Source: Synechococcus sp. | Lineage (GTDB): Bacteria; Cyanobacteriota; Cyanobacteriia; Thermostichales; PCC-7336 | Assembly (NCBI GenBank): GCA_051439425.1 | Contig: JBFRWD010000075.1 | Location: 14,069-78,068 of the forward strand | Length of the DNA stretch: 64,000 nt | Direction of reading: 5' to 3' | Shown: one piece after another, positions 1 through 19,000 of the stretch | How positions within the stretch are numbered: position 1 is the first letter of the stretch | Layout of the letters: the number at the start of each line of letters is the position of its first letter | Translations under genes and position numbers: made by a program | The notes under the pieces: generated by a model | Told to the model about the DNA's origin: nothing | Database searches by the model: none | Seen by the model: only the letters and a program-made list of their open reading frames with translations

Positions 1-540
1 AACGTTTTATTCTTGCGCAGCCCGAACGAACGAACGAGGTGGGAGGAAATGTTACCGGTAGTGGCCGAGGCCCGTCGTCTCAAAATGGGAGTAGTTTTGC
101 TGGGCTTGCATTCAGTCGCTGGACTCGGCCGAGCGGAGATCGTCAACCTGTGGATACGGCCACAATCAGAAACATTGCCACTATCAGAGCGACTTCAGAA
201 AGGCAGTAGCAATCTTGGGATTTTGATGGCGCTACGGCTAACGCGAGCCTGGAATGCCCAGCTTAATCTGATTGCAGCGGTGTCTGACGATTGCGACCCC
301 AAAGAAGCTAGACATTATATGGAGGAATTACGCGATTACTGCCGCGTTCCCATCCAGGCCCGCACGATTGTGATGGCGGGCAGTTTTGAGGACTGTCTAT
401 CGAAAGCTCCTCAATCGGATATGGACTTTATGGGATTGCAAACGGTGCCGGATTTCGAGTTCGTCCAAAAAGCGCTATCTCTGACAGGCTCTTCCTGCAT
501 TTTTACCAGTGATTCGGGCATAGAAAGTGCTTTAGCTTAG
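1..540 (+). CDS. C-terminal part of an amino-acid permease / cation-chloride cotransporter-like protein (5' end outside window)
   Basis: Frame 1 is open from the window edge. INLWIRP...NLGILMALRLTRAWNAQLNL...APQSDMDFMGL resembles the cytoplasmic C-terminal domain of prokaryotic SLC12/CCC-like permeases. Confidence 0.6.
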   Translation, partial: NVLFLRSPNERTRWEEMLPVVAEARRLKMGVVLLGLHSVAGLGRAEIVNLWIRPQSETLPLSERLQKGSSNLGILMALRLTRAWNAQLNLIAAVSDDCDPKEARHYMEELRDYCRVPIQARTIVMAGSFEDCLSKAPQSDMDFMGLQTVPDFEFVQKALSLTGSSCIFTSDSGIESALA

Positions 541-900
541 GGCTGGCTTTTCTCGTATTGAATTAAGAGCCCAACGGAAGATGGCGGATTGGGTATTGAG
601 TAACTGATAAGCACACCTGCACCCGACCCGACTCTGCGTTTTAGTGATCGCGTCGAACACTACATCCGCTATCGTCTCAACGATTCTTGAGCCGTCCTCA
701 ACATCGTGCACTAAACAACCAACCTCACCCCCTCCGCGATCTCAGACATCGGCTTCAGCACTTACTTCTGCTTCGGCACCTACTTCTACTGCTAAGGCTC
801 TACAGCGTGAAGGTTTTTGCAGTCTCGCGCCAGACGATCGCGCACACCGGTAAGATACTGCAGGTATTACAAGACCCAGACTTTAAAGATCCATACAGTA

Positions 901-1224
901 ATGAGCCAGACCTACTACTACCTTGCAGCTAGCAAAGCCTTCTTCGATTCGGAACCTTTTGATGAGGTACTGGCCGAGCGTCGACGCAACTATGCCGAGC
1001 GCAACAAGCCGATTGACTTTGAATACATCGAAAATCCAGCCTTCCTGCAGGCCCCTGAGTTCGCCGATCTACGTGGCAAACTCGATGCTCCTGCCGCTGC
1101 ATTGGTGTCGACCGATCCGAAGCTCGTGCGCTGGTTGAAATTGCGGTTAGAATTCGTCGAAATGGGTGAGTTTGCTGCCCCCAGCGACACCATCCCCGAT
1201 GCTATGGCTGCCCAGCCGGAGTAG
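901..1224 (+). CDS. ycf54: Mg-protoporphyrin IX monomethyl ester cyclase accessory protein Ycf54
   Basis: MSQTYYYLAASKAFF..EPFDEVLAERRRNYAE...IDF...PAFL...WLKLRLEFV is the Ycf54 signature. ATG at 901. Confidence 0.9.
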   Translation: MSQTYYYLAASKAFFDSEPFDEVLAERRRNYAERNKPIDFEYIENPAFLQAPEFADLRGKLDAPAAALVSTDPKLVRWLKLRLEFVEMGEFAAPSDTIPDAMAAQPE

Positions 1225-1229
1225 ATGCT

Positions 1230-1799
1230 TTGGGCTATACCTGCCCCCGCTGCCACGATACGTTTCTGTTCCAACCCGACCAATGCCCCACCTGCGCTGC
1301 TGACAGTTCTCGCAAGCAGCGTAGCAGTCGTGCGCGCGAGCGACGAGCCAGTTACGACACGCAGGGCAAGATTTCTGAATCGGAGTTCTGGCAACTGTTA
1401 AGGCTATATCCTTGCTGTCCGAGTTGTGGGGAACCGTGGGAGCGGACAGAGGGGGCAATCGCCCGCGACCACATTATTCCCATTAGCCGAGGGGGCCCCA
1501 ATACGTCTGCCAATATTCAACCGTTGTGCCAGACTTGCAACTTATGGAAGTCCGATCGTCTGATTTACTTCGATCGCGCTCTTCCCGGTCGCGTGACTGC
1601 CTTACCTGCTGTGCTGCGGCCAATTTTTGCAGCGATTGACGACTATCAGCCGCAAACCAACCAACAGCAGCTTTCGTTTATCTCTCAGTCGGATGAAGTG
1701 GCCTATCCTAATGCCACACCGGAAGCATTAGAGCGGCAGACTATTTCACAAACTTGGCAGGCGATCGAAGCTGAGAGGCCAACGACATACCGCCTTTAA
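1230..1799 (+). CDS. HNH endonuclease domain protein
   Basis: CPSCG...DHIIPISRGGPNTSANIQPLCQTCNLWK HNH motif, plus an N-terminal CxxC zinc ribbon. Confidence 0.85.
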   Translation: MGYTCPRCHDTFLFQPDQCPTCAADSSRKQRSSRARERRASYDTQGKISESEFWQLLRLYPCCPSCGEPWERTEGAIARDHIIPISRGGPNTSANIQPLCQTCNLWKSDRLIYFDRALPGRVTALPAVLRPIFAAIDDYQPQTNQQQLSFISQSDEVAYPNATPEALERQTISQTWQAIEAERPTTYRL

Positions 1800-7078: not shown

Positions 7079-8104
7079 GTGACTGTCGATTCTCCTGCCT
7101 CCAATTCTCTCAACTCGGTACAACTAGTTAGTGTGGCGACGGCTGTTCCTGAGACAGTTTTGACGAATGACGAGCTGGGACAGATTGTCGATACCTCCGA
7201 CGAATGGATTCGCCCCCGCACCGGAATTCGCGAACGTCGCATCTTAGAGCCGAGTCGCACTTTGGTCGATCTTGGTGCGGAAGCCGGTCGGTTGGCGATC
7301 GCGCAGGCTGGCCTTGAGCCGATGGACATTGACCTAATTGTGTTGGCGACATCTACCAGTAGCGAACGATTTGGGGCGGCTGGTGCCATTCAAGGACAGT
7401 TGGGAGCCAAGCGAGCGGTGGCGTTTGACCTAACGGCGGCTTGCACTGGGTTTGTGTATGCGGTGGCGACGGCGGCGCAGTTTTTGCAGACGGGGGTGTA
7501 TCGGCGGGCATTGATTGTGGCGGCAGATGTGTTGTCGCGCACAGTGGATTGGAGCGATCGCCGTACCTGCGTTCTATTTGGTGATGGTGCCGGAGCGGTT
7601 GTATTGGAAACTGGTTCGACTCAGGGATTGCTGGGGATGGAGTTGCGTACGGATGGTACGGGCAGCGATTTGCTGACGTTAGAGAATAAGTCGGAATCGG
7701 TGGAGCTGACTGACTCCATTTCTGTAGGGCAGTATCGCAATCAGTTCATTGCCATGAATGGGCGCGAGGTTTACAAGTTTGCGGTGCGAGAAGTGCCGGA
7801 GGTCGTGGAGAAGACGCTGTTTCGGGCGGGTCTGGATGCGGCGGATGTGGATGGATATTTCATGCATCAGGCGAATCAGCGGATTTTGGATGCGATCGCC
7901 AAACGCCTGAAAGTAGACAATGACCGGTTTGCGAGCGTTCTCGATCGCTACGGCAATACCTCAGCGGCGTCGATTCCGTTGGCGCTGGCGGATTGGGTGG
8001 AGTCGGGCAAGTTGAAGACCGGACAGACGGCGCTGGCGGCAGGGTTTGGTGCAGGACTGACTTGGGGGGCGATCGCTTTTAAGTGGGGGCGATTGGACGG
8101 TTAG
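7079..8104 (+). CDS. fabH: Beta-ketoacyl-ACP synthase III
   Basis: DTSDEWI..RTGIRERR, AACTGF, FGDGAGA, HQAN, GNTSAASIP. Confidence 0.97.
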   Translation: MTVDSPASNSLNSVQLVSVATAVPETVLTNDELGQIVDTSDEWIRPRTGIRERRILEPSRTLVDLGAEAGRLAIAQAGLEPMDIDLIVLATSTSSERFGAAGAIQGQLGAKRAVAFDLTAACTGFVYAVATAAQFLQTGVYRRALIVAADVLSRTVDWSDRRTCVLFGDGAGAVVLETGSTQGLLGMELRTDGTGSDLLTLENKSESVELTDSISVGQYRNQFIAMNGREVYKFAVREVPEVVEKTLFRAGLDAADVDGYFMHQANQRILDAIAKRLKVDNDRFASVLDRYGNTSAASIPLALADWVESGKLKTGQTALAAGFGAGLTWGAIAFKWGRLDG

Positions 8105-10866
8105 TCGCTCTTCTGATTTTCTTGGATGTTTTCGGAGAGAGCTTTTTGGCGATCGTGAATGCGTTTAGCTATGTCTTGAGCAACCTCGGTGATCTCTTGC
8201 GCTTGGCGTGGGTTTTCTCCTTGAAAGAGTTTGATTCCTATAATTAGGGGCTCTAGTTTGGACGCTATTGGGCAGTTGGTGAGAACTCGTACCGTTTCTA
8301 GGGTGTTACCTCGGACAACAGCTTCGACGAAGAAACTCGTAATTGGTCCAATGAAATTAGATGCGTTTTTGAGAGTCAATAGTTTTGCAAAGGCTGTAAA
8401 CGCCTCGTCGTAGAGCTCCAAATGCTCGTGCAGTAACTGTCCTAGTCTTACCCAAAGCTCTGCGTTATCTGGTTTGAGCTCGATAGCTTTGCGATAAGCT
8501 TCCTTTGCCTCACCATAGTTCTTCAAACATTCATGCAATAACTTTCCTCGAAATAGCCATAGTATCCATTCATAATTTGGAGGAACGAGTTCGATGGCTT
8601 TGCGGTAGGCTTCTTCAGCCTCGTCGTAGCGTTCCAAACGCACGTGTAGTAGTTTCCCAAAGTGAGCCCAAAAGTTCCATGCTTGACTGGACTTGATAGA
8701 GATTCCTTTACAATAAGCTGCTTCAGCTTCGTCGAACCGCTCCAAATGCTCGTACAGTAACCCTAGTTGTCCCCAAGCCCATTCGTAATCGGGTTCGAGC
8801 TCGATAGTCTTGCGATAAGTCTGTTCAGCCTCGTCGTAACGCTCCAAACACTCGTGCAGTAACTGTCCAAGTTGTCCCAAAGCCCATGCGTCATCGGGTT
8901 TGAGCTCGATGGCCTTGCGATAAGTCTGCTCAGCCTCGTCGTAACGCTCCAAGCGCTCGTGCAGTAATTGTCCGAGTTGTGCCCAATCCCATGCGTCATC
9001 GGGTTCGAGCTCGATGGCTTTGCGATAAGCCTGCTCAGCCTCATCGTAACGCTCCAAACGCTCGTGTAGTAATTGTCCTAGTTTTGCCCAATCCCATGCG
9101 TCATCGGGTTTGAGCTCGATGGCTTTGCGATAAGCCTGCTCAGCTTCGTTGTAACGCTCCAAACGCTCGTGCAGTAATTGCCCTAGTTTTGCCCAATCCC
9201 ATGCGTCATCGGGTTTGAGCTCGGTAGCCTTGCGATAAGCCTGCTCAGCCTCGTCGTAACGCTCCAAACGCTCGTGCAGTAACTGTCCTAGTTTTGCCCA
9301 AGCCCATTCGTAATCGGATTTGAGCTCTATGGCCTTGCGATAAGCTTCCTCAGCCTCGTCGTAGCGCTCCAAATGCTCGTGCAGTAATTGCCCTAGTTGT
9401 GTCCATGCTTTATGGTCATGTGGATTTATCTCGATGCGCTTGCGAAGCTCTTTTTCAGACTCTATCGGCGATAACGAGACAGCAGATTCTGAGGTGTCTG
9501 TAAGTGCGTTTGAAAGCTGTTTCAACTCTTCAGGAAGATCGAAAGCGGTAAAAAAGTCTTCTGGAGTTGCCTTTAATATTTCCGTCTTGAGTGATTTGGT
9601 GATTCCTTTATGATTGACAATTTCGCCATATGCACAATACAAATCTTGCCGGAAATCTTGATTGATCCCACCAATTTCCTTCGCCAATTTTGTAGTTGCA
9701 AGTACAAGATCTTGCTCTTGATAATATTGCACCATAAAATCGACAGCCGCTCTTACCCGACTGGCGGCTGTGCTGCGGCGTCGCATCAAATAGTAAATGT
9801 TGTAAAGCCTTTCAGTTGCCTGATAGTACTTCCTACGTCCTTCTTTTTCAACAACTTCTACTGCCCCTCGATTTACCAAACGATTCAATACAGAGCTCGC
9901 TTTGTTAATGTCTAACCGTGCTTTTTGTGAAACTTCTTTTGCTGTCGCAGGATCCCAGATCTCCAGCAATGCAACAAAAATCTTCCGTTCCTGGGCTGGC
10001 AGACTTTCAAGTTGGCCTTTAAAATAATCCGTGTGCTCATCAATTAATCGAGTCAGATTAGTCATTAAGTCTTGAAATGACAATTGCGCAGCAAACTCCG
10101 CCAAAATTCTAACGAGCCGAGGATTTCCTCCAGTCAATATTCTGACGGGATGTAATTGCTGTTCTGAAATTTCTTGTCCTGTGATTTTGTTCCAAAGCGG
10201 TTGACAATCTGCTGTACTTAAAGGTTTTAATTCAATCTGCTCAAATAGCTCGAACCAAGCTTTATCGATGTTTGAAATCTCATCAAAACTGGCTGTTGCC
10301 GTTCCCAATAGCATTGCACGCGGCTCGTTCATTAACGTATGGCGCAACGTCCAATCATCATCGCTACCAAGCTGTTCCTCCAACAACATGTTCAGATTTT
10401 CAACAACCAGTAGTAGCTTCCCCCCCCGTTCATCCACAAAATCCATTAGCTGCGCTAACGCCCTTGCCGCCAGCCGCTGGTCGTCCATCTCCGATTCCAG
10501 CTCGTCGTATACCAATTGCCACCGACCGTCTTTCGTTTGTTCCCCTAAATAAAACAACGCTTCCCGCCAAAATTCCCCCGGACTTGTAACCGAATAGACC
10601 TCTTCACCAAACACCAGCGGATACCAATCCGCATCCAACTCTTTGCTCCGACGAATCTCCGCAGCTACTCGTCGCACCAGCGTTGTCTTTCCAGTCCCTC
10701 GCGCCCCAATCAACAACACGTGCTGGTTGCTTTCCGCCTCCACGTTGTCCCGGATCCGTTCTATCGTCAGGTCGAGATACTCATTGCGCACCACAAACTG
10801 TTTGATGACCTCGTCATCGCTGCTAAACCCCGGATTGTATTTGGGAGCTGACAGAACCACCATCAC
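8101..10866 (-). CDS. STAND/AAA-type ATPase with winged-helix and C-terminal TPR array
   Basis: Walker A GARGTGKTT, Walker B-like LLLVVEN, GGNPR (GxP), wHTH (ATAKEVSQKARLDINKASSVLNRL) and about ten 35-aa TPRs. Confidence 0.8.
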   Translation of the reverse strand: MMVVLSAPKYNPGFSSDDEVIKQFVVRNEYLDLTIERIRDNVEAESNQHVLLIGARGTGKTTLVRRVAAEIRRSKELDADWYPLVFGEEVYSVTSPGEFWREALFYLGEQTKDGRWQLVYDELESEMDDQRLAARALAQLMDFVDERGGKLLLVVENLNMLLEEQLGSDDDWTLRHTLMNEPRAMLLGTATASFDEISNIDKAWFELFEQIELKPLSTADCQPLWNKITGQEISEQQLHPVRILTGGNPRLVRILAEFAAQLSFQDLMTNLTRLIDEHTDYFKGQLESLPAQERKIFVALLEIWDPATAKEVSQKARLDINKASSVLNRLVNRGAVEVVEKEGRRKYYQATERLYNIYYLMRRRSTAASRVRAAVDFMVQYYQEQDLVLATTKLAKEIGGINQDFRQDLYCAYGEIVNHKGITKSLKTEILKATPEDFFTAFDLPEELKQLSNALTDTSESAVSLSPIESEKELRKRIEINPHDHKAWTQLGQLLHEHLERYDEAEEAYRKAIELKSDYEWAWAKLGQLLHERLERYDEAEQAYRKATELKPDDAWDWAKLGQLLHERLERYNEAEQAYRKAIELKPDDAWDWAKLGQLLHERLERYDEAEQAYRKAIELEPDDAWDWAQLGQLLHERLERYDEAEQTYRKAIELKPDDAWALGQLGQLLHECLERYDEAEQTYRKTIELEPDYEWAWGQLGLLYEHLERFDEAEAAYCKGISIKSSQAWNFWAHFGKLLHVRLERYDEAEEAYRKAIELVPPNYEWILWLFRGKLLHECLKNYGEAKEAYRKAIELKPDNAELWVRLGQLLHEHLELYDEAFTAFAKLLTLKNASNFIGPITSFFVEAVVRGNTLETVRVLTNCPIASKLEPLIIGIKLFQGENPRQAQEITEVAQDIAKRIHDRQKALSENIQENQKSD
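8730..9400 (-). repeat. Near-identical 105-bp tandem repeats encoding TPRs
   Basis: gtaacgctccaaacgctcgtgcagtaa-type block recurs at about 8836, 8941, 9046, 9151, 9256 and 9361. Confidence 0.9.
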
Positions 10867-12107
10867 CCATCCCCCCGATCGCTAGCAGACACGTAGCTAA
10901 AACCGTAATGGTTTTTCCACCAATCCCTCAATAAATTCGATTCAAATTCATAACAGGCATCCCGTTGAATCAAATACCCGTCGTGCTTCAAGATCCCCAA
11001 AATCTCTATCAGCGAACTGTCTTCTCCAACCTCTCCGTAGTCTTGGCAAATCATCTGTGCTGCTGCTGGAGTTAACTGCCCAACAACTGCCGCTTCAGTC
11101 AATAGCTCTAACGTCAGTGGATGTTGTTTCACACTCAACACCATCTTGATGCGCTCTTCTAAGTGACTCAGATCGGCATGTCCCCTTACTCCCAACATGT
11201 CTTGCTGGTAAATACGCTCGGCTAGATCGAGAGAAATCGTTTCAAGGCTATTCTTCCTGCAATGTTGGTAGAGGTGGCTAAAGAACATCTGGACGTGGTA
11301 CGGAATGCAAACCCCTAGTAACGCCGCCATCCGCTGCTGCACATCATCTTCAAACGTGAGCTGAACCTCATTTGCTAAGGCATCCCAACAGGCACAAGCA
11401 ACGTTTACCGACCATGCCTTCAAATCAAATGGTGTCAGATGATTGATCGTGGCACTTAACCCCGCCTTTCGTAACAGCGGCTCTAACCCAATCGACCCCG
11501 TTACCACAAACCTCAACGTCCCCTGGTGTTGCAAGCAATTCCTTCTCAGCCAAGACATCCATAGCTCGGCTTCCTCCTTACGCTCATTGGTCATGCTGTA
11601 GTCCGAGCCTTTCAGCATCCGACTCACTAGAATCGGCACTTCATCGCAGAAAATCGCCACTGGTTGTTCCGAACTGGCCAATATATCCAAGAGACGATTG
11701 CCCTTACTCTGCCAATCACCTGGTGAGAGTCCCCCACGTAGTTTGATCTTCAACTCGCTGACTTGGATACTCCCTACACTTTGAGCTAGGCCATCCAATG
11801 TATTGGCAAACAAGTCCTGAGTTTTGATCCACAAGGGTTTATGCTCGCGTGTTGCTACGCTCAACTCGGCGATCGCGTCTGCAGCGTCCTTTGCATCTTG
11901 CAAGTCGATATGCAAACAGATGTATCGATCGGAAATCCGCCGCGACACCTCGTGCATCAAACTTGTTTTTCCCATCCGCCGCTGTGCCACCAACAGCAGA
12001 TGGTCGCCGCTATCCAACGACTCTTCAAATAGCTCTAGCTCTGCTTCTCGCCCAAAGAACCGATTGCCCGTTACGTAGTTGCCGACCGTACGCTTGAGCT
12101 TGTCCAC
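10863..12107 (-). CDS. STAND/archaeal-type ATP-binding protein (probable GTG start at 12107)
   Basis: GNYVTGNRFFGREAEL, degenerate Walker A AQRRMGKTS, Walker B IFCDE, VVTGSIGL, C-terminal LLRDWW. Overlaps the downstream gene by 4 bp. Confidence 0.75.
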   Translation of the reverse strand: MDKLKRTVGNYVTGNRFFGREAELELFEESLDSGDHLLLVAQRRMGKTSLMHEVSRRISDRYICLHIDLQDAKDAADAIAELSVATREHKPLWIKTQDLFANTLDGLAQSVGSIQVSELKIKLRGGLSPGDWQSKGNRLLDILASSEQPVAIFCDEVPILVSRMLKGSDYSMTNERKEEAELWMSWLRRNCLQHQGTLRFVVTGSIGLEPLLRKAGLSATINHLTPFDLKAWSVNVACACWDALANEVQLTFEDDVQQRMAALLGVCIPYHVQMFFSHLYQHCRKNSLETISLDLAERIYQQDMLGVRGHADLSHLEERIKMVLSVKQHPLTLELLTEAAVVGQLTPAAAQMICQDYGEVGEDSSLIEILGILKHDGYLIQRDACYEFESNLLRDWWKNHYGFSYVSASDRGDG

Positions 12108-12123
12108 AGCCAAATGCCTCTTT

Positions 12124-12199
12124 TCAACAATTCCATTGCCAACAAATTTGTTGGCAAGGTTAATATATCCAACAATTCTGTTGCCAACAAATCCGTTGG
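12124..12199. promoter_or_regulatory. 15-bp-periodic array of palindromic CAACAA-N4-GTTG sites upstream of the ATPase pair
   Basis: CAACAA starts at 12125, 12140, 12170 and 12185. ttgccaacaaatttgttggcaa (12136-12157) is a perfect palindrome. Confidence 0.65.
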
Positions 12200-12291
12200 G
12201 GATATTCAGAAAGAGAAAAGCCCCCATTGAGAACTGCTCAATAGAGGCCAAGGTTATTGAATTACCTCTGTCTTCAGGGATCTGAAGGTGT

Positions 12292-13473
12292 CTATCCCTT
12301 CACGCACACCACCTGTTTGAGGGTGGCGACAACTTCTACCAAGTCGGTTTGGCTGGCCATCACCTCCTCAATTGGTTTGTAAGCACCGGGAATTTCATCC
12401 AGAATCCCTTTGTCTTTGCGGCATTCGACACCGGCGGTTTGCTCGATTAGGTCATCGAGTGTGTAGGCTTTCTTTGCTTTGGTGCGGGACATGCGGCGTC
12501 CGGCTCCGTGGCTGCAAGAACAGTAACTGGCGTGGTTACCTTTGCCTTTAACGATGTAGGACTTGGCGCCCATCGAGCCGGGGATGATGCCGTAGTCGGT
12601 GGTGCGGGCGCGGACGGCTCCCTTGCGGGTGACGTATACGTCTTCGCCGAAGTGGTTTTCTTGCTCGGCGTAGTTGTGGTGGCAGTTGACGGCCAGCAGG
12701 GGCTTGGTGGGTTTGCCTCCGGCAAGATGCTTCTCAACGATGTGCTTGAAGCGGGCCATCATGACGTCGCGGTTGAAGCGGGCGTAGTCTTGCGCCCATT
12801 GCAGGTCGTGCCAGTAGGCAGCGAACTCGGGGGTGCCTTTGACGAAGTGGGCCAGGTCGGGATCGGGTAGGGTTTCGTCAGCTAGTTGAGCGAGCCCTTT
12901 TGCCGTTTTGATGTGGTTTTGGGCCAGTTTGTTGCCGATGTTGCGGGAGCCAGAGTGCAGCATCAGCCAGACGGTGTTGTCGGTGTCGAGGCAGAGCTCG
13001 ATGAAGTGGTTGCCGCCGCCAAGGGAGCCCATTTGGTGGAGAGATTTGGATTCTAGTTTTTGGACACCTTTGTGCAGGTTTTTGAACGAGCGCCAGCCGT
13101 TCCAGTTGTAGGCGTCTTTTTCGACGTCCTTGTTTTGGTTGAATCCGGTGGGGATAGCGGCTTCGATGTCTAGGCGAATTTTCTTGAGTTTGCCCTCTAG
13201 CATGTCGCCCGTAAATGGGGTTTTGATGGCGCACATCCCGCAGCCAATATCCACGCCGACAGCAGCGGGGATGATGGAATCTTTGGTGGCGATGACGGAA
13301 CCGACTAGGGCTCCTTTGCCCAGGTGGACGTCGGGCATGAGGGCGACGTGTTTGTAGACGAAGGGGAGGTTGGCGACGTTTTTGGCCATCCGGTATTCGT
13401 CGGAGCTAAGCTCGTGGTTTGCCCAAGAGTAAACGGGCTTATCGGTAGGTAGATTTAGATCTTTCTGTGACAT
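12292..13473 (-). CDS. rtcB: RNA ligase RtcB
   Basis: MPDVHLGKG, VGVDIGCGM, GSLGGGNHFIEL, LHSGSR, CHHNY, RKGA, PGSMG, SHGAGR, DEIPGAYK. ATG at 13473 (MSQKDL). Confidence 0.97.
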   Translation of the reverse strand: MSQKDLNLPTDKPVYSWANHELSSDEYRMAKNVANLPFVYKHVALMPDVHLGKGALVGSVIATKDSIIPAAVGVDIGCGMCAIKTPFTGDMLEGKLKKIRLDIEAAIPTGFNQNKDVEKDAYNWNGWRSFKNLHKGVQKLESKSLHQMGSLGGGNHFIELCLDTDNTVWLMLHSGSRNIGNKLAQNHIKTAKGLAQLADETLPDPDLAHFVKGTPEFAAYWHDLQWAQDYARFNRDVMMARFKHIVEKHLAGGKPTKPLLAVNCHHNYAEQENHFGEDVYVTRKGAVRARTTDYGIIPGSMGAKSYIVKGKGNHASYCSCSHGAGRRMSRTKAKKAYTLDDLIEQTAGVECRKDKGILDEIPGAYKPIEEVMASQTDLVEVVATLKQVVCVKG

Positions 13474-13602
13474 GGTTATTTCTCTCTTTCTTCTTCTTGG
13501 TCGGTGTTTTGGGTCGAATTTGTAGCGAGCAGCTACGACAATTGATGGAATTTGTTGCTGGTGGCAGGCAAGTAAGAATTGCTTTTTGGCAAAAGTGTAG
13601 AT

Positions 13603-13633
13603 AAGCCTCATGCTCACATAGCAGAGGAGGCTT
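13603..13633 (-). terminator. Stem-loop between rsr and rtcB (terminator/attenuator or processing site)
   Basis: Minus strand AAGCCTC-CTC-TGCT-ATGTG-AGCA-T-GAGGCTT, 11 nt after the rsr stop. Confidence 0.45.
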
Positions 13634-13644
13634 GAGGAGCATTC

Positions 13645-15246
13645 CTACAAATCTCCGTTGGCAATCATCTGAATGGCCCGAGGGGCACCGGGGTCAAACC
13701 CAGCGAAATCCCACGACAACGGATCTTGAGGATCGACCAAAGAGATGCGGTACGGAGCCAGCGAAACGTAAACCGCTTTCGCATCGGGATTCACCTTACG
13801 GCGATACTCTGCCAACGCCTGTGCGGGATGTCGCTTGCCTGCCCACGACTCGCAATCTGTCCAGAAGCAAAACACATCCGTCCAGACCCGCTTGGCGATC
13901 GCCCAGTCATACGCCACCGACGCATCCGTCCCCCCAAACGTTTGTCGCGTCGTCTTCTGCAACGCAGACGAGAAACAATCCCGAGCCGTAATCCCCAAGT
14001 CTTTGAAGGTAGTCGAGAATCCGCGAATAACATAGTTTTTCTCGGCTTTCGCCGTTACCAACGCCATCGTTGTCGCAATCTCGCTACAAGACAGATTCAT
14101 AGACCCGCCAGAGTAACAAGACATAGACCCCGAAACATCGACCGCATGCAAGAACGTCTTGCCCGTAGGCTTCACGGTCTCAAACGAACGCTCCAGAGCT
14201 TTCTCTAAAATGTCGCAAATGCGAGGAATCGGTTCCCACGTCTTCTTGCTGCGACCGGATCGACCCCCAGATCGATAAGTCTTCAGCGCCTTCAACACGT
14301 CAATCGGATGAATCCGTCCCTTGCGCAAGCGATCGCGACTGGTCAACACCTTCGCCACCCGCCTCAAGTTCTTAGACTTGTGAACTTGCAACACCCCAAT
14401 TTCAGTCAAAGACCCCAAGTTGCGCAACAGCGCCCCAATCGGCATGTCTTCAAACAGTAACTGCCAAGCGTTGGCATCCATCTTGGCGATCGGAGCCACC
14501 ATCTCGTGGGTCAATCGCCCCTCGGAGATCGCCATGCAGGTACTGTCAGGATTGCGCTTCAACCACTCGTACCACCACACCTGAGCAATCGGTCCATTGG
14601 GCACCCGATCGGGCAATGTCTCCCACCCATTTACCACCCAGTCGTAGAGAGCCTGGTGCCCTTCTGTCTCAGGCTTAACGTGGAATAAACGCAAGGCATC
14701 GCGATTGCTAAACCCATGCCGTTGTCGGTACTTCAACAACTGATAAGTCAACCACTTCACATCAGGATTCGACAACCACCCCTTACCGCATTCCCGCACC
14801 ACCTTACCCAAACCACGCACGGACTTGGTGTAGTTCAACCACTCGTAAAAATGACTGCCGGTGCGCACCACCTTAGGGAAAATCTCCATAAATGCCTGTT
14901 TTGCAGCATGGGAATCCCCCATAGACAGCAACACCAAGGCGTAGATGGGGGCGCTGTTGTTGATGGAACGACCGTCGCTAGCCGAGACAATCTCGCTCGC
15001 GGTGCGGGCTGGGTCTTTGTCCACACAAGCCAAGACCGTATCGGTAAAGTCACCGGTTAAATCGTGTTTGTCGGCGTAATAGGTGCTTTGCGCCGTGCCG
15101 ATCAGCAAGCAGCGGGTCAGCATGGTCCAGGGGCCGGGGTCAAACATGTAACCGCCAGACCGACCACGTACCATCTCCTGTTCACGTCCGGGAATCGGTT
15201 GATGTTGAGGAGTTTTAGTAGTCGAGGTGAAAAATTTATATGACAT
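13645..15246 (-). CDS. rsr: Ro60 ortholog (TROVE + vWA domain protein, Rsr)
   Basis: MVRGRSGGYMF, RCLLIGT..STYY, VVRTGSHF, LLKYRQRHGFS.RDALRL.H, MPIGALLRNLG, RIHP, MIDAS AVDVSGSM, GGTD, TDCE, GFD. ATG at 15246 after a purine-rich RBS. Confidence 0.93.
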   Translation of the reverse strand: MSYKFFTSTTKTPQHQPIPGREQEMVRGRSGGYMFDPGPWTMLTRCLLIGTAQSTYYADKHDLTGDFTDTVLACVDKDPARTASEIVSASDGRSINNSAPIYALVLLSMGDSHAAKQAFMEIFPKVVRTGSHFYEWLNYTKSVRGLGKVVRECGKGWLSNPDVKWLTYQLLKYRQRHGFSNRDALRLFHVKPETEGHQALYDWVVNGWETLPDRVPNGPIAQVWWYEWLKRNPDSTCMAISEGRLTHEMVAPIAKMDANAWQLLFEDMPIGALLRNLGSLTEIGVLQVHKSKNLRRVAKVLTSRDRLRKGRIHPIDVLKALKTYRSGGRSGRSKKTWEPIPRICDILEKALERSFETVKPTGKTFLHAVDVSGSMSCYSGGSMNLSCSEIATTMALVTAKAEKNYVIRGFSTTFKDLGITARDCFSSALQKTTRQTFGGTDASVAYDWAIAKRVWTDVFCFWTDCESWAGKRHPAQALAEYRRKVNPDAKAVYVSLAPYRISLVDPQDPLSWDFAGFDPGAPRAIQMIANGDL

Positions 15247-15300
15247 CTTTTCTTCTCCGTCCCTGATGGGATAAACGAACGGTGTCCCCAAATGGGGAAG

Positions 15301-15425
15301 GGAGACGGACGGGAATCGAACCCGTATCTCGGCGGACAAAAGGGGGGATCGTTAACAGCGATAACCTTGAGTCCTTCAGCCCTTGCGGGCAATCAGTGCG
15401 CTCTACCGTTTGAGCTACCGACTCC
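15301..15425 (-). ncRNA. tRNA-shaped Y-like RNA, copy D
   Basis: (G)GAGUCGG-UAGCUCAAACGGUAGAGCG-[CACUGAUUGCCC-GCAA-GGGCUGAAGGACUCAAGGUUAUCG...CCUUUUGUCC...]-ACGGG-UUCGAUU-CCCGU-CCGUCUC-C. Confidence 0.8.
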
Positions 15426-15447
15426 ATATAGGTTTTGGGAAAAACAT

Positions 15448-15552
15448 TGGTGGACGGGAAGAGATTCGAACTCCTGACCGATAACCCTCGCTCGACGACC
15501 TATGAGGTAAAGAGTGAACGAGGGGTTGCTCTACCATTTGAGCTACCCGCCC
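15448..15552 (-). ncRNA. tRNA-shaped Y-like RNA, copy C (encoded ACCA end)
   Basis: GGGCGGG-UAGCUCAAAUGGUAGAGCA-[ACCCCUCGUUC-ACUCU-UU-ACCU-CAU-AGGU-C-GU-C-GAGCGAGGG-UUAUCGGUC]-AGGAG-UUCGAAU-CUCUU-CCCGUCC-ACCA. Confidence 0.88.
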
Positions 15553-15582
15553 ATATTGAGTTTTGAGAATGAGAGGGGATTT

Positions 15583-15687
15583 GTTCGCGAAGCGTCTCCG
15601 TCAGGAGATACCCCGCCTTCCAGCTACCGATAACCTTCATCCGGCGTCCCTTTCGGGTCAGTGGTGAATAAAGAGGAAGACTCGCCC
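15583..15687 (-). ncRNA. Y-like RNA copy B (Ro-stem module without canonical D/T arms; ends approximate)
   Basis: GUCUUCC-UCUUUAUUC-ACCAC-UGA-CCC-GAAA-GGG-ACGCC-GGAUGAAG-GUUAUCG-GUAGCU-GGAAGGC, then hairpin UCUCC-UGAC-GGAGA. Confidence 0.65.
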
Positions 15688-15697
15688 GTATTGAGGT

Positions 15698-15828
15698 TGT
15701 AGTGGAGGAGGACTCGAACCTCCAGATGACGCAGTTCCCTACGATAACCCTCACTCTTCGACCCAATGGGTAAGAAATTGAATAAGGTAACTCGACTGCC
15801 GCCTTTACCAATTTGGCCACCCACTACA
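15698..15828 (-). ncRNA. tRNA-shaped Y-like RNA, copy A
   Basis: (UG)UAGUGGG-UGGCCAAAUUGGUAAAGGCG-GCAGU-[...CCUUAUUC-AAUUUC-UU-ACCC-AUU-GGGU-C-GA-A-GAGUGAGG-GUUAUCG...]-ACUGC-GUCAUCU-GGAGG-UUCGAGU-CCUCC-UCCACUA-(CA). Confidence 0.85.
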
Positions 15829-16015
15829 GGTGTTTGACTTGATAGTGGTGCGATGAAGTGTGTTTGGCTTGCGCCGCCCGTCCCTCATCGACATCCCAAG
15901 ACTAAGAGCCACTTGCCCCCCTATTCGAATGCAGCTCAAAACCCGGCCAACGCAGACTGGATAAGAGATGGGAGTTAGGGGGGAGGTGTGAAGTTGGGGG
16001 GCCCCCCTAACTTTG

Positions 16016-19000
16016 TTAGTGGAATTGCTGTTGGGATATTGGAGACTGAGCGACTCGATCTTGCGGGCGGGCAAATCGGTGCTTGGTGCGATCGTAGATT
16101 TCGTAGCGATTGCGGCCGCCTGTTTTTGCTGCGTACATGGCGGCATCTGCGTCGCGCAAAATCTCGGCTGGCGAGTTATACCTCGGATTACCGAGCGCTA
16201 TGCCAATGCTGGTGCTGGTGGAAAGTTGGCGATCGCCAATCACGACGGGTTGCATCACTGCCGTGAGAATGCGCTCGGCGGTTTGCTGGATGCCGACAGT
16301 ACTCTCCAAGTCATCCAGCAAAATTGTAAACTCGTCTCCCCCCAACCGAGAGACTGTATCCCCCGTGCGTACGCACTGCTGCAAGCGCTGAGCAATGGTG
16401 CGCAACAGCCGGTCTCCTGCGGCGTGACCGAGGGTATCGTTCACCGATTTAAATCGATCCAGGTCGAGGAACAGAACGGCGTATTGTTCGCTGAGACGGC
16501 GTTTGCTCCGTTCGATCGCCTGTCCCAGCCGATCGTTAAAGAGCGATCGATTGGGCAATCCGGTTAAGGGATCGTGGAAGGCGTGGAACCGTAGCTCTTG
16601 CTCCATCACCTTGCGAGTTGTGATGTCTTCCACCGTGCCGACATAGTACAAAAGCTGACCGGAACTATCCTGCACAGCCCGCCAATTTTCACTCACCCAA
16701 AATGTGTTGCCGTCGCGGTGGCGCACCTCAGATTCGTAAGCTTCCACTGCAAAATCTGTTGCCAATTGCTGCAGCAATTGCTGGCGCTGTTGAGAGTCAA
16801 CGTAGAGCAGCTGGTGAACGTTTGCCACCGATGCCATCATTTGGGCTGGACTTTCGTAGCCGTACATGGCGGCCAGTGCAGGATTTGCCCCGATCAACTG
16901 CCCGTCTGGGGCGACTTGGAAGATTCCCTCTAGTGCTTGCTCGAAAATGCTGCGATATTTGGCTTCTGCTTGTTGCAGGGCGTCCTGGGCCTGCTGTCGC
17001 TCGGTGATGTCGTTGCCCACGTACAGTACGCACAACTCACCGGACAATTCAATCAAATTCGCTGACAGCAATAGAGTGCGGGTATTGCCAGAATGTTGCT
17101 TGAACTCCACCTCCAGATTGCGGACAACACCATCTGTTTTCAGCCGTCTAAAAATCTCCCTTCGGGTCAGATCGCGGTGCCACAAGCCCAATTCTTTAGC
17201 GGTGCGCCCGATCGCCGCCTCCCGCTCTAATTTGCAGATGCTGAGGAAGCTGTCGTTAACCTCCAACAATTTGCCGGAGCGTACTGCCACAATGGCCACC
17301 GGACTGGAGCTGGATTTAAAGGCGGCGGCGAACTTTTCTTCCGATTGTCGTAGGGCTATTTCCGCATGCTTGCGCTCGGTGGTATCGCGAGCGACTAACA
17401 GGGCTGTGGTGGCTCCAGCAGGTGAAATTCGTCCGGAAAAGCATCTCTTTTGCCCGTTAATCTCCAACTGGTATTCCAGATCGGTGGTTTCGTTGCGATC
17501 GATCGCGGCTTGAATCGCCGTCAAACAGCGATTGCTATCATCGTCACTAATCAGATGTTGGAGGTGAATGCGCAATAGCTCTTCGGAAGGGGAGATGGGA
17601 GAGGAGGGATCGCTGGAGGTGATGTGGGTGTAGCGACCGACGCGATCGAACATCAGAATCACTTCGGTCATGGCGGAGAACACCACCCGCATGTGTCGTT
17701 CGGCGGCTTCCAGAGTAGCGGTGCGCTGCTGTACCCGATGCTCTAGTTCTACGTTGGTGGTGGCGAGGCGATCGATCGTGCCGCGCAATTGTGTGGCCAG
17801 TCCTTTGACAGAGGTGGAGAGAATTTCAAGCTCCGAGATCGTGCTGTGGGGAACAGCTAAGTCCAAAGCATTTGGGCCACCGGCCGCCATTTTTCGCGCC
17901 ACCGAGCTGAGTTCGTGGATGGAGCGAGCCATCCACCGGGCCGTCGCATTGCCGAACACGATGGCTAGTAACAGGGCGACTAAATACAGTGCTAGGGTGT
18001 CCCGCATGCTGCGACTGAGAGTACCGATTAGATCGGAGCTGGGGATGGCCACGATCATGAGCCAATCCAATCCCAGATCTCCTTTCATGGAGTCAACCTG
18101 AACGTAATAGGTTTCTCCGGCTGGGTCGCGAACCAATCCTTGAAAGGCGTCAACGGCTGCGTAGCTGCCAAATTCGTTGAGGAGGTGTTGCTCCACCGCT
18201 TGCATGTAGCTGTTGCTGCTGTCCGATACTGTGAACGGAGTTGGGGTTTCGCCCTCCGCGATCTGAGGAAACGTGTCTGCTTGGGAGCTGGCGACCACCG
18301 AGCCGCTGCGCTCTAGGATGATGGCCTCGCCCCGCTCGCCAATTTGCAATTCAGTTAGGAAGTCATCCAGTTGCGACAGAGTGATGTCCACCGCCAGGAC
18401 CCCATCAAGTTGATTGTTGCTGTCGCGGATGGGGATAGTGGGGGTAACGCCTCGCACCGGCTGGGCCGCAAAGTAGTAGATCGGAGACCAGGTGGGGCCG
18501 TTACTTTCCCTGGCAGACTCGTACCATGGCCGGATTCGCGGATCGTAACTATCCGTTCTCAGAAGAGTTTCTGGCTCGCCGTTGCTATCTAACTGATAAA
18601 TTTCGCGGGTGGGGGCGATGTCGGATGTGACGCGGTAGGAGAGGGGCTCGTCTTCACTTTGAGTGACGAGTATAAACTGGCCGGATTCATCACCGTAGTA
18701 CATCGTACGGACAGATTCTTCTAACCGTACGACTTGATAGAAGTAGCGTTGTAGGTCCTCGAAATTACTGGGATCGATTTGGCCGGTGGAGATGGCCGCT
18801 TGCGTGATTTGCAAAAAGGTGTGGGGCTGCTTGGCAAAATCAATCAGGTGATGTTCGATATGTTCGGTTGCTTCGGAACTCAGCTCGAAGGCGAGCGATC
18901 GCACGGCTCGCTGGCCGTTATAGAACGATAGGGCACCGGTAAAACCAGTGACCAGGACGATTTGTAGCAGGAAGGGTGCTACCAGCGCTTGCTGGAGAGA

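What the first reader, a model, noticed from the sequence alone, without database searches (positions are those of the whole stretch)
15448..15828. Circularly permuted topology: Ro-binding stem closed by a loop in place of the anticodon arm
Seen: in copy A the insert folds as CCUUAUUC/GAGUGAGG, an asymmetric bulge, UU/GA, a single bulged C, then ACCC-AUU-GGGU. Copy C shows the same layout (CCCUCGUUC/GAGCGAGGG, bulged C, ACCU-CAU-AGGU), with different sequences preserving the pairing. The strand GGGUCGAAGAGUGAGGGUUAUC resembles the 5' strand of metazoan Y RNA (GGUCCGAAGGUAGUGAGUUAUC). Established: in Y RNAs and YrlA the bulged-C stem is formed by the 5' and 3' ends, and the acceptor-like stem is loop-closed. 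Here it is the reverse: true tRNA order with free acceptor ends. Inference: a permuted Y-RNA class, possibly an evolutionary intermediate between tRNA and YrlA. I do not recall it being described but cannot check the literature.
Basis: partly seen in the sequence, partly recalled or inferred. Interest (0 to 1): 0.92.

Follow-up and report, generated by a model that had tools for sequence, protein, structure and literature searches.

The report
tRNA-ordered Y RNA array beside rsr
Just upstream of a cyanobacterial Ro60 (rsr) gene lie four tRNA-shaped small-RNA genes whose anticodon arm is replaced by a loop-capped Ro-binding stem; this is a rearranged form of the known bacterial Y RNAs that keeps a tRNA's free acceptor end and may even be chargeable with alanine.

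Summary
On the minus strand, 15828-15298, four tandem units lie directly upstream of rsr (Ro60) and rtcB. Each unit runs in true tRNA order: acceptor, D arm, insert, T arm, acceptor. The insert is a Y-RNA-type hairpin (bulged C, GGGUUAUCG) closed by a small loop.

A covariance model built from 14 units finds the same unit at nearly every cyanobacterial rsr locus I fetched (123 hits in 32 sources, 278 hits in 79 further loci).

Several results favour self-contained units over the conventional YrlA order spanning neighbouring units:
- Acceptor strands pair within a unit (129/138 full stems) far better than across units (23/69).
- Arrays begin and end on whole units.
- Single units exist.
- 82/123 caps are GNRA or UNCG tetraloops.
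- 46/71 internal units encode CCA.

Chen et al. 2014 already listed these loci as YrlA, read in the conventional frame with a "longer acceptor stem" and unmapped ends. This is therefore a new variant of a known kind, not a new class.

Two new points emerged. CCA-bearing units with discriminator A carry G·U at the third acceptor pair (41/63), which resembles alanine identity. A copy of the Ro-type hairpin overlaps the rsr ribosome-binding site. No RNA data could be obtained, so the mature ends remain inferred.

The parts
15298..15828 (-). Array of four tRNA-order, Ro-hairpin-bearing units (A, B, C, D) directly upstream of rsr.
15699..15827 (-). Unit A. Acceptor UAGUGGG/UCCACUA, extended by the pair G15827:C15699. 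Class-II-like D arm with a 3-bp stem. 5-bp anticodon-stem remnant GCAGU/ACUGC (15799-15795 with 15735-15731) carrying the Ro hairpin. T arm 15723-15707. No encoded CCA (tail CAACC).
   Evidence: R1 101.3 bits; fold; sequence.
15749..15787 (-). Ro-type hairpin of unit A. CCUUAUUC pairs with GAGUGAGG. Cap ACCC-AUU-GGGU, bulged C15760, GUCGAAG motif, followed by GGGUUAUCG (15750-15742).
   Evidence: The GNCGAAN0-1G motif is named in PMC4201824.
15565..15687 (-). Unit B. D-arm-less unit with acceptor 5' strand GGGCGAG and a Ro hairpin capped CCC-GAAA-GGG (15657-15648). It is degenerate: a 25-nt insertion sits in the T loop (within 15609-15584) and the 3' acceptor strand is mutated and lacks CCA, whereas four relatives have an intact ...CUCGUCC-A-CCA.
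   Evidence: Alignment; pattern search.
15448..15552 (-). Unit C. Acceptor GGGCGGG/CCCGUCC with G3·U70, D arm 15543-15528, Ro hairpin 15524-15485, UUAUCG 15484-15479, T arm 15475-15459, A73 at 15451, genomically encoded CCA at 15450-15448.
   Evidence: Rfam tRNA 42.9 bits; R1 98.8 bits; cloverleaf MFE z -3.47.
15301..15424 (-). Unit D, the last before rsr. Acceptor GAGUCGG/CCGUCUC with a U4·U69 mismatch. Cap GCCC-GCAA-GGGC (15390-15379). Here the strand after the cap (GGAC..AAGG, 15374-15365) pairs DOWNSTREAM with CCUU..GUCC (15343-15334), around an AUCG-loop-CGAU hairpin. T arm 15325-15309. C73, then CUU, no CCA.
   Evidence: Rfam tRNA 39.3 bits; MFE z -2.29; R1 94.9 bits.
15255..15273 (-). 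Hairpin in the rsr leader, UCCC-AUCA-GGGA, followed by C and GGAG (the likely Shine-Dalgarno sequence), 9 nt before the AUG at 15246. It has the same layout as the cap + bulged C + GR of the units.
13645..15246 (-). rsr (Ro60 orthologue, 533 aa).
   Evidence: Pfam vWA_Ro60 1.5e-38 and TROVE 5.2e-16.
12292..13617 (-). rtcB RNA ligase.
   Evidence: Pfam RtcB 2e-124.

Best explanation
The array encodes the cyanobacterial form of the Ro60-associated tRNA-like Y RNAs (YrlA lineage). The topology is tRNA-ordered, not the circularly permuted order of characterised YrlA.

Each unit is a complete molecule. Its own 5' and 3' ends form a 7- or 8-bp acceptor stem. It keeps the D/T elbow of a tRNA. In place of the anticodon arm it carries the Y-RNA Ro-binding module: UU / cap stem / bulged C / GA, then a GNCGAA-like strand, then GGGUUAUCG. 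That helix is closed by a small, mostly GNRA or UNCG loop, exactly where all characterised Y RNAs have their 5' and 3' termini.

Inferred biogenesis: the units are co-transcribed with each other, and probably with rsr-rtcB. They are released like tRNAs, by RNase P at the 5' end and 3' trimming that leaves the encoded CCA.

Inferred function: the capped hairpin binds the outer face of the Rsr ring. The tRNA-like body, with its free CCA end, engages a tRNA-handling partner such as RtcB, an exonuclease, the CCA-adding enzyme, or alanyl-tRNA synthetase for the G3·U70/A73 units such as unit C.

Shown here: the gene-level architecture, its conservation, its linkage to rsr, and the failure of the cross-unit reading. 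Inferred: the mature ends, Rsr binding and the partner.
For: (1) Linkage. All 123 model hits in 32 sources lie on the rsr strand. They form arrays of 1-6 units ending about 35-55 nt before rsr, plus one unit after rsr in 21 loci. In 79 further named cyanobacterial rsr loci there are 278 hits, 277 on the rsr strand. By my reading of the table, 74 of 79 loci have at least one hit, and 4 of the 5 misses hold fewer than 171 nt upstream. In the own genome the only hits above 48 bits are these units.

(2) Acceptor stem in tRNA order. All 7 pairs change on both sides and 98.7% of cells are paired. For the whole structure, 0 of 500 shuffles reach the observed values, and sliding the partners drops pairing from 97.2% to 40-54%.

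(3) Within-unit against cross-unit pairing. Within-unit acceptor pairing averages 6.92 of 7 pairs, with 129 of 138 stems full. The 3' strand of unit n with the 5' strand of unit n+1 averages 5.74 of 7, with 23 of 69 full. For cap stems, Watson-Crick pairs are more numerous within than across in 34 of 70 junctions, equal in 31 and fewer in 5 (the within value is favoured by how the hairpin was picked).

(4) Units that cannot be read across neighbours. Single upstream units occur in L044, L065, L080, L086 and L127, and 21 downstream singletons have acceptor, Ro hairpin and T arm in tRNA order.

(5) Caps. 71 of 123 are GNRA, 11 are UNCG and 14 are triloops. The closing pair covaries: GC in 89 and AU in 18.

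(6) Encoded CCA. N(1-2)CCA follows the stem in 46 of 71 internal units, 4 of 31 last units and 0 of 21 downstream units. None of the 37 ARAGORN tRNA genes of this genome is followed by CCA.

(7) Both topologies occur in one distant same-phylum locus, L055. It holds a conventional YrlA with a closed acceptor loop (Rfam 55.4 bits, model positions 1-114) and a tRNA-order capped unit (R1 60 bits; Rfam tRNA 42.9 bits with a 67-nt insert).

(8) Precedent. M. smegmatis YrlA, which has a 7-bp acceptor stem, is cut by RNase P and receives CCA in vivo (PMC4201824, passages read).
Against: No RNA-level data: no RNA run was listed for this stretch, so mature ends, abundance and Rsr binding are untested.

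The two strands of the Ro hairpin are so conserved that duplex energies do not separate the readings: -6.4 kcal/mol within a unit, -5.8 across units, and -5.65 for strands paired from other loci. The hairpin shows little covariation: 88.0% of cells paired against 85.4% in shuffles, and 26 of 500 shuffles reach the observed number of pairs with changes on both sides.

Alignments A2 and A4 were fitted to my model and hold many close relatives, so the counts overstate independence.

Units A and B alone fold no better than shuffles (z -0.38 and 0.04).

Only unit A matches the published GNCGAAN0-1G motif exactly. Units B, C and D are variants.

Unit B is degenerate. Neither A nor D has CCA.
Confidence: 0.72

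Rival explanations
1. The published reading. Each functional RNA is a conventional YrlA that starts at the Ro-motif strand of unit n, runs through its T arm, uses the 3' acceptor strand, the spacer and the next unit's 5' acceptor strand as a long closed 'acceptor stem-loop', continues through the D arm of unit n+1, and ends on that unit's Ro 5' strand. The ends would be made by cutting in the small cap loops.
For: Chen et al. 2014 aligned Calothrix, Stanieria and Gloeocapsa sequences in exactly this frame (Supplementary text 2) and listed such 134-230-nt YrlAs for cyanobacteria (Table S1 rows). Rfam's YrlA model gives weak cross-unit hits: 20.7 bits for window 15399-15480, and up to 35.7 bits over the full model in L003. 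Because paralogous units are alike, 23 of 69 cross-unit acceptor stems are fully paired and 40 of 70 cross-unit cap stems are fully paired.
Against: All cross-unit Rfam hits are far below the gathering score of 69. In the L003 alignment the YrlA 5' strand is laid on GGGUUAUCG, not on the Ro motif. Cross-unit acceptor pairing is much poorer than within-unit pairing. An array of n units would leave two orphan halves, and nothing like a T arm precedes unit A or a D arm follows unit D. Single units and downstream singletons cannot be read this way. The supposed 'acceptor loop' would vary from 5 to 182 nt and would contain an encoded CCA. The supposed termini would lie inside GNRA or UNCG tetraloops. 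The authors themselves marked the ends as undetermined.
Confidence: 0.08
2. The units act mainly in cis, as tRNA-like processing and stability signals (like t-elements) and as Rsr-binding sites in a long rsr-rtcB leader. They would set the 5' end and the translation of the rsr mRNA, rather than acting as free Y RNAs.
For: The last unit ends 35-55 nt before the rsr start codon and usually lacks CCA (4 of 31 have it). A further Ro-type hairpin overlaps the ribosome-binding site in 65 of 74 leaders, against 71 of 1980 control windows. No promoter-like or terminator-like site was found between the array and rsr.
Against: Several diverged paralogous units per locus, each with a full tRNA elbow, an acceptor stem that covaries, and encoded CCA in internal units, is more than a processing signal needs. 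Units also lie downstream of rsr, followed by a run of U. In other bacteria the homologous RNAs are stable, Rsr-bound species (PMC4201824). The two roles are not exclusive.
Confidence: 0.12
3. A decaying tRNA gene cluster with insertions in the anticodon arms, unrelated to Ro60 function.
For: Unit B is visibly degenerate. Rfam's tRNA model matches units C and D.
Against: The insert is the most conserved part of the unit across cyanobacterial orders: GGGUUAUCG, the cap, and the bulged C. The units occur only at rsr. No unit has an anticodon loop.
Confidence: 0.02

Closest known systems
YrlA of Salmonella Typhimurium (Rfam RF02553; tRNA-like domain structure described in bioRxiv 10.1101/312249)
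   Same: Encoded beside rsr and rtcB. Carries a tRNA D/T elbow with the same conserved arm sequences (GUAGCUCA..GGUAGAGC, GGUUCGA). Has a Ro-binding stem with a GNCGAA-type strand.
   Different: In YrlA the T arm precedes the D arm, the acceptor stem is a closed 6-bp hairpin without CCA, and the Ro stem is made by the 5' and 3' ends. Here the order is acceptor-D-Ro hairpin-T-acceptor, the Ro stem is loop-closed, and the acceptor is open. The Rfam score is 20.7 bits against a cut-off of 69.
Cyanobacterial 'YrlA-II' predictions of Chen et al. 2014 (PMC4201824, Supplementary text 2 and Table S1)
   Same: The same loci and the same sequences: GGYCGA..GAGGGUUAUCG, T arm, CCA, spacer, D arm.
   Different: They are framed there as conventional YrlA across two neighbouring units with a 'longer acceptor stem' and undetermined ends. 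My counts favour one molecule per tRNA-order unit.
Mycobacterium smegmatis YrlA (PMC4201824)
   Same: A 7-bp acceptor stem. It ends up with a free acceptor end and CCA, because RNase P cuts it and CCA is added in vivo.
   Different: It is transcribed in permuted order and becomes two Rsr-bound halves of 82 and 65 nt. In the cyanobacterial units the Ro stem is capped, so the processed RNA would be one piece, and CCA is often encoded.
tmRNA tRNA-like domain
   Same: An anticodon-less tRNA mimic with a T arm, acceptor stem, G3·U70, A73 and CCA. The D-arm-less units (B-type, and the units downstream of rsr) share its reduced layout. tmRNA's alanine charging through G3·U70 is established knowledge that I recall, not a result from a call.
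   Different: No mRNA-like reading frame or pseudoknots. The long arm is a Ro-type hairpin. Rfam tmRNA scores are 17 bits or less.
[quoted passage not shown]
   Same: A helix with a single bulged C, followed on the same strand by a UUAUC motif (PMC4726728; sbRNA consensus printed).
   Different: In those RNAs the 5' and 3' ends form the stem, and there is no tRNA-like body. Here the stem end is a loop. No Rfam Y_RNA or sbRNA hit was listed at E up to 10 in window 14800-16400.
b7a-tRNA (Burroughs and Aravind 2016), known to me only as cited in 10.1101/312249
   Same: A predicted tRNA-order ncRNA beside rtcB, said to lie occasionally beside rsr.
   Different: It is described there as strongly resembling an authentic tRNA. 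I could not read the paper (PMC5062991 is not held), so I cannot say whether it carries a Ro-type hairpin.

Membership tests
Y RNA (Ro60-bound ncRNA, functional class) | Encoded with or next to a Ro60 orthologue. | tested here: met
   The array ends 55 nt before rsr. The same arrangement holds in 32 sources and in 74 of 79 further loci.
Y RNA (Ro60-bound ncRNA, functional class) | Conserved helix with a single bulged C and a GNCGAAN0-1G-type strand. | tested here: inconclusive
   The bulged C after the cap stem is present in A and C and conserved across the family. The exact motif is present only in unit A; B, C and D are variants.
Y RNA (Ro60-bound ncRNA, functional class) | The Ro-binding stem is formed by the RNA's 5' and 3' ends. 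| tested here: not met
   The stem is closed by a 3-4-nt loop in every unit.
Y RNA (Ro60-bound ncRNA, functional class) | Physically bound by Ro60/Rsr. | not testable with these tools
   Needs immunoprecipitation or a gel-shift assay.
YrlA (Rfam RF02553) | Score at or above the gathering cut-off of 69 bits. | tested here: not met
   20.7 bits for a partial match (model 26-82) across units C and D. Relatives score 23.7-35.7 bits.
YrlA (Rfam RF02553) | Permuted order: T arm, closed acceptor hairpin, D arm. | tested here: not met
   The order within each unit is D arm, Ro hairpin, T arm. Cross-unit acceptor pairing is poor (23 of 69 full stems).
YrlA (Rfam RF02553) | tRNA-like D and T arms with conserved elbow nucleotides. 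| tested here: met
   The Rfam tRNA alignment of C and D shows GUAGCUCAA..GGUAGAGC and GUUCGAAUC / GGUUCGAUUCC.
tRNA (Rfam RF00005) | Cloverleaf order with acceptor, D and T arms; score at or above 29 bits. | tested here: met
   42.9 bits (C) and 39.3 bits (D), covering model positions 1-71.
tRNA (Rfam RF00005) | Anticodon stem-loop of normal size. | tested here: not met
   44- and 67-nt inserts at that place. ARAGORN finds 0 genes in the window.
Alanine-accepting tRNA-like RNA (tRNA-Ala / tmRNA identity set) | G3·U70 with A73 and a 3' CCA. | tested here: met
   Unit C has G1-C72, G2-C71, G3·U70, A73 and an encoded CCA. Across the family, 41 of 63 distinct A73+CCA units have G·U at the third pair, against 5 or fewer at any other position and 0 of 16 with other discriminators.
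Alanine-accepting tRNA-like RNA (tRNA-Ala / tmRNA identity set) | Charged by AlaRS. | not testable with these tools
   Needs an aminoacylation assay.

The most novel reading that the evidence does not exclude
Cyanobacterial Y RNAs are one-piece, tRNA-ordered molecules. A conserved subclass, including unit C of this window, is a genuine AlaRS substrate. These units have no anticodon, carry G·U at the third acceptor pair counted from the CCA-defined terminus (in both 7-bp and 8-bp stems), have A73, and encode a CCA that the genome's real tRNA genes lack. Ro60 would then be tethered to an aminoacylatable tRNA mimic, giving a direct link from Ro60-based RNA surveillance and RtcB repair to the translation or tRNA-charging machinery, in the manner of tmRNA. 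Rsr would in addition throttle its own translation through a Y-RNA-mimic hairpin over its ribosome-binding site.
Probability: 0.3. Interest if true: 0.85.

Novelty: new variant of a known kind. Interest (0 to 1): 0.66.

Why it matters
Bacterial Y RNAs are described as circularly permuted tRNA mimics "lacking a free CCA end" (10.1101/312249). The tRNA-binding partner of their tRNA-like half is still unknown.

If the cyanobacterial members are tRNA-ordered, with a loop-capped Ro stem and an open, often CCA-encoded acceptor end, three things follow:
- Ro60 recognition does not need RNA termini at the conserved helix.
- The published cyanobacterial YrlA coordinates and lengths are framed across two genes.
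- Both topologies exist side by side in one locus (L055). That makes the proposed origin of YrlA from dimeric tRNA transcripts testable on living examples.

The G3·U70/A73/CCA signature gives a concrete, cheap experiment for the long-open question of what the tRNA-like domain engages: charging by AlaRS.

Tried and rejected
- **RNA evidence.** No RNA holder was listed for window 15200-15920.
- **ARAGORN** on the window found nothing.
The natural cross-unit reading served as a partial stand-in.
- **Duplex energies of the Ro-stem strands** did not discriminate within-unit from cross-unit pairing.
- **Promoter and terminator scan** of 15150-16150 found 0 sites of either kind.
- **Weak glutamine-riboswitch hit** at 15243-15279 (20.8 bits against a cut-off of 35). 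I rejected it as a riboswitch, since 14 model positions are missing, and re-read it as the rsr leader hairpin.
- **Origin of the units.** Comparison with the genome's 37 tRNAs gave no clear parent tRNA; the best matches were 24 of 34 compared positions or fewer, to tRNA-Lys and others.
- **The 25-nt insert of unit B** has no second copy in the own genome at up to 4 substitutions.
- **Reaching other phyla** through the search for related loci returned only cyanobacteria among the best 80.
- **Papers I could not read:** Burroughs and Aravind 2016 and Sim et al. 2020. Sim and Wolin 2018 was neither sought nor read. These may bear on whether the tRNA-order form is in print.
- **Literature searches that found no description of it:**. 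For Rsr autoregulation.
- **Earlier notes of this scan** hold conventional YrlAs in other phyla, none cyanobacterial.
Full report
**What is there.** The feature lies on the minus strand. Reading 15828 to 15298 gives four head-to-tail units (A, B, C, D). They end 55 nt before the start codon (15246) of a 533-aa Ro60 orthologue (rsr; Pfam vWA_Ro60 1.5e-38, TROVE 5.2e-16), which is followed by rtcB (2e-124). Rfam's tRNA model matches units C (15552-15451, 42.9 bits) and D (15424-15301, 39.3 bits) from position 1 to 71, with 44- and 67-nt inserts where the anticodon arm belongs. ARAGORN calls nothing.
- Unit A: CCUUAUUC pairs with GAGUGAGG, the cap is ACCC-AUU-GGGU, and C15760 is bulged.
- Unit C: CCCUCGUUC pairs with GAGCGAGGG, the cap is ACCU-CAU-AGGU, and C15497 is bulged.

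Unit C folds as a whole into a cloverleaf with one long arm (z -3.47, 0 of 200 shuffles as good). Unit D has z -2.29. Units A and B alone are no better than shuffles.

Unit C ends ...CCCGUCC-A-CCA, that is, acceptor strand, discriminator A and an encoded CCA.

Unit B has no D arm and is degenerate. Against four relatives it has a 25-nt insertion in the T loop and a mutated 3' acceptor strand.

Unit D differs in one respect. After the cap, the conserved strand pairs with a downstream partner rather than an upstream one.

**How general it is.** Two of three same-genus genomes searched and a same-class genome carry similar arrays. From 14 units I built a covariance model, R1.
- It finds 123 units in 32 sources: the window, two relatives, and 29 loci around Rsr genes found in 43 of 401 genomes of the phylum.
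- All are on the rsr strand, in arrays of 1-6 units ending just before rsr. In 21 loci one further D-arm-less unit lies just after rsr, followed by a run of U.
- In 79 named cyanobacterial rsr loci (Nostoc, Pseudanabaena, Thermostichus, Leptolyngbyaceae, Spirulina, Acaryochloris and others) R1 gives 278 hits, 277 on the rsr strand. By my reading of that table, 74 of 79 loci have at least one hit, and 4 of the 5 misses hold almost no upstream DNA.
- In the window's own genome only these units score above 48 bits.

The most conserved stretch of the unit is the insert itself..CCUUGUUCA..UUG-CCUG-AAAA-GG-C-CGAC-GAAU..AGGGUUAUCG.

**Which topology.** In a tandem array, tRNA order and YrlA order are circular permutations of each other, so the internal sequence alone cannot decide between them. 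Six observations can.
1. *Acceptor stem.* Counted in tRNA order, all 7 pairs change on both sides and 98.7% of cells pair. For the whole structure, 0 of 500 shuffles reach the observed values and slid partners give 40-54% (the alignment is fitted to the model and the rows are related). Independently of that fit, each unit's own strands pair at 6.92 of 7 positions (129 of 138 stems full). The 3' strand of unit n with the 5' strand of unit n+1, which is the pairing the conventional reading needs, reaches 5.74 of 7 (23 of 69 full).
2. *Array ends.* Arrays start with a 5' acceptor strand and end with a 3' acceptor strand. The conventional reading would leave two orphan halves per array.
3. *Single units.* Five loci have a single upstream unit (L044, L065, L080, L086, L127). 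The 21 downstream units are singletons more than 1,650 nt from the array. They fold in tRNA order.
4. *Caps.* The loops that would have to become RNA termini are GNRA in 71, UNCG in 11 and triloops in 14 of 123 units. The closing pair covaries (GC in 89, AU in 18).
5. *Spacers and CCA.* The inter-unit spacers, which would be the 'acceptor loop', range from 5 to 182 nt. N(1-2)CCA follows the acceptor stem in 46 of 71 internal units, 4 of 31 last units and 0 of 21 downstream units. None of this genome's 37 ARAGORN tRNA genes has CCA after the discriminator. The script's looser count of 5 covers genes whose acceptor happens to end ..CC plus discriminator A.
6. *Both forms in one locus.* A distant same-phylum rsr locus (L055) holds a conventional YrlA with a 7-nt closed acceptor loop (Rfam 55.4 bits, full model), a conventional Y/sbRNA-like RNA, ordinary tRNA genes, and one tRNA-order unit with a capped Ro-type hairpin (R1 60 bits). 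The two forms are therefore distinct gene architectures, not two readings of one.

Evidence that does not discriminate:
- The Ro-stem strands are too conserved for duplex energies to separate within-unit, cross-unit and random pairings (-6.4, -5.8 and -5.65 kcal/mol).
- The hairpin shows only modest covariation.
- Cap stems pair better within than across units (Watson-Crick pairs more numerous in 34, equal in 31, fewer in 5 of 70 junctions). My choice of the best hairpin favours the within value.

**What is in print.** Chen et al. 2014 (PMC4201824; passages, section 18, Supplementary text 2 and Table S1 rows read) found "relatively few" YrlAs in cyanobacteria, some with a "longer acceptor stem", and built a second model including them.
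- In that alignment the Calothrix, Stanieria and Gloeocapsa rows begin at GGYCGA..GAGGGUUAUCG, pass through the T arm, CCA and a spacer of up to about 100 nt, continue through a D arm, and stop in the next cap. This is the conventional frame laid over two neighbouring units.
- The legend of Fig. S1 says the ends were not determined.
- The same paper shows that M. smegmatis YrlA, with a 7-bp acceptor stem, is cut by RNase P and gets CCA in vivo.

Wang et al. 2018 (bioRxiv 10.1101/312249; passages and discussion read) make four relevant statements:
- The cyanobacterial stem is "predicted to be much longer".
- Most YrlAs "likely resemble circularly permuted tRNAs".
- YrlA may have arisen from dimeric tRNA transcripts.

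Searches of the held library found no description of tRNA-ordered, cap-closed Y RNAs. Two works that might bear on this could not be read, and a third review was neither sought nor read. Rfam 15 has no family for the unit: only tRNA reaches its threshold, and YrlA scores 20.7 against 69. Earlier notes of this scan report conventional YrlAs in other phyla and nothing cyanobacterial.

**How it most likely works.**
- *Shown:* the gene architecture, its conservation and its tie to rsr.
- *Inferred:* the units are transcribed together, probably with rsr-rtcB, since no promoter-like or terminator-like site lies between them. They are released by RNase P and 3' trimming, as tRNAs are. The capped hairpin is the Rsr-binding module. 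It keeps the bulged C, the GNCGAA-like strand and the UUAUC motif, in the order seen on the 5' strand of eukaryotic Y RNAs and sbRNAs (consensus printed; PMC4726728). The tRNA-like body presents a free acceptor end to a tRNA-handling partner.

**A signature pointing to one partner.** I set the acceptor register by the encoded CCA. Among distinct units with discriminator A, 41 of 63 (42 loci, 17 of 36 distinct stems) have G·U at the third pair from the terminus. G·U occurs 5 or fewer times at any other position, and in 0 of 16 units with another discriminator.

The G·U sits at alignment column 3 in 7-bp stems (the window's lineage, for example unit C). It sits at column 2 in the 8-bp stems, which carry an extra G-1:C73 pair (72 of 120 units) and are widespread in other orders. 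C-type units keep G3·U70 while pair 5:68 changes from G-C to A-U.

G3·U70 with A73 is the established identity set of alanyl-tRNA synthetase, which does not read the anticodon, and is used by tmRNA. That is recalled knowledge, not a result from a call. Charging is therefore a reasonable but untested prediction. The counts include many related genomes.

**Seen in passing.** Directly before the rsr start codon lies another copy of the cap + C + GR layout, overlapping GGAG. In the window it is UCCC-AUCA-GGGA-C-GGAG (15271-15255). In most other loci it is UUUGCCCGCAAGGGCCGGGAG or similar. A loose pattern matches 65 of 74 leaders against 71 of 1980 control windows. This suggests that Rsr binds its own leader and masks the ribosome-binding site. 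It also shows the hairpin in a setting where no RNA end can be involved.

**Verdict.** The topological reading is well supported at gene level across the phylum, and the rival cross-unit reading fails several independent counts. The mature ends and Rsr binding remain unproven. The loci are not new, since they were published as YrlA. What is new is the frame (one tRNA-ordered, cap-closed molecule per unit), the alanine-like acceptor signature, and the leader mimic. I class it as a new variant of a known kind.

Noticed in passing
window 15255-15273 (-), and the 50 nt before rsr in L067-L145: A hairpin with the same layout as the units' Ro-type cap (stem, 4-nt loop, stem, C, GR) sits on the likely Shine-Dalgarno GGAG of rsr. 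A loose pattern matches 65 of 74 leaders against 71 of 1980 control windows. This is possibly translational autoregulation by Rsr. A literature search found no description.
   Followed up: partly
window 15243-15279 (-): A weak Rfam glutamine-riboswitch hit (20.8 bits, cut-off 35, 14 model positions missing). It is the rsr leader hairpin described above, not a riboswitch.
   Followed up: yes
window 15584-15609 (-): A 25-nt insertion in the T loop of unit B, absent from four relatives. Very similar 35-40-nt stretches occur in several copies in three other cyanobacterial genomes (G039, G027, G040), but only once in the own genome. It is probably a small mobile repeat.
   Followed up: partly
L055 (G139) 1-1360 (-), also L056, L059, L061: In distant same-phylum genomes rsr is flanked by arrays of ten or more ordinary-sized tRNA genes. 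These are interleaved with a conventional YrlA, an sbRNA-like Y RNA (Rfam ceN72-3_ceN74-2, 29.3 bits) and, in L055, one tRNA-order capped unit.
   Followed up: partly
21 loci, e.g. L039:3151-3262 (+): A conserved D-arm-less unit lies just downstream of rsr: GGCGGGU..Ro hairpin..extra hairpin..T arm..ACCCGCC, then a run of U. The window lacks it, because rsr and rtcB are only 27 nt apart.
   Followed up: partly
window 15286-15297 (-): A small hairpin, CCCC-AUUU-GGGG, lies right after unit D. It is conserved in G001, G003, L067 and L079.
   Followed up: no
window 15860-15900 (-): About 30 nt upstream of unit A (cttgggatgtcgatgagggacgggcgg..) is conserved in G001 and G003. It may be a promoter region or another element. 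The simple sigma-70 scan found nothing.
   Followed up: no
window 8101-12251 (-): Downstream of rtcB lie a 462-aa protein with a weak AAA_16 match and a 921-aa AAA/STAND-type NTPase with a TrmB-like domain and many TPR repeats. Their relation to the RNA-repair genes was not examined.
   Followed up: no
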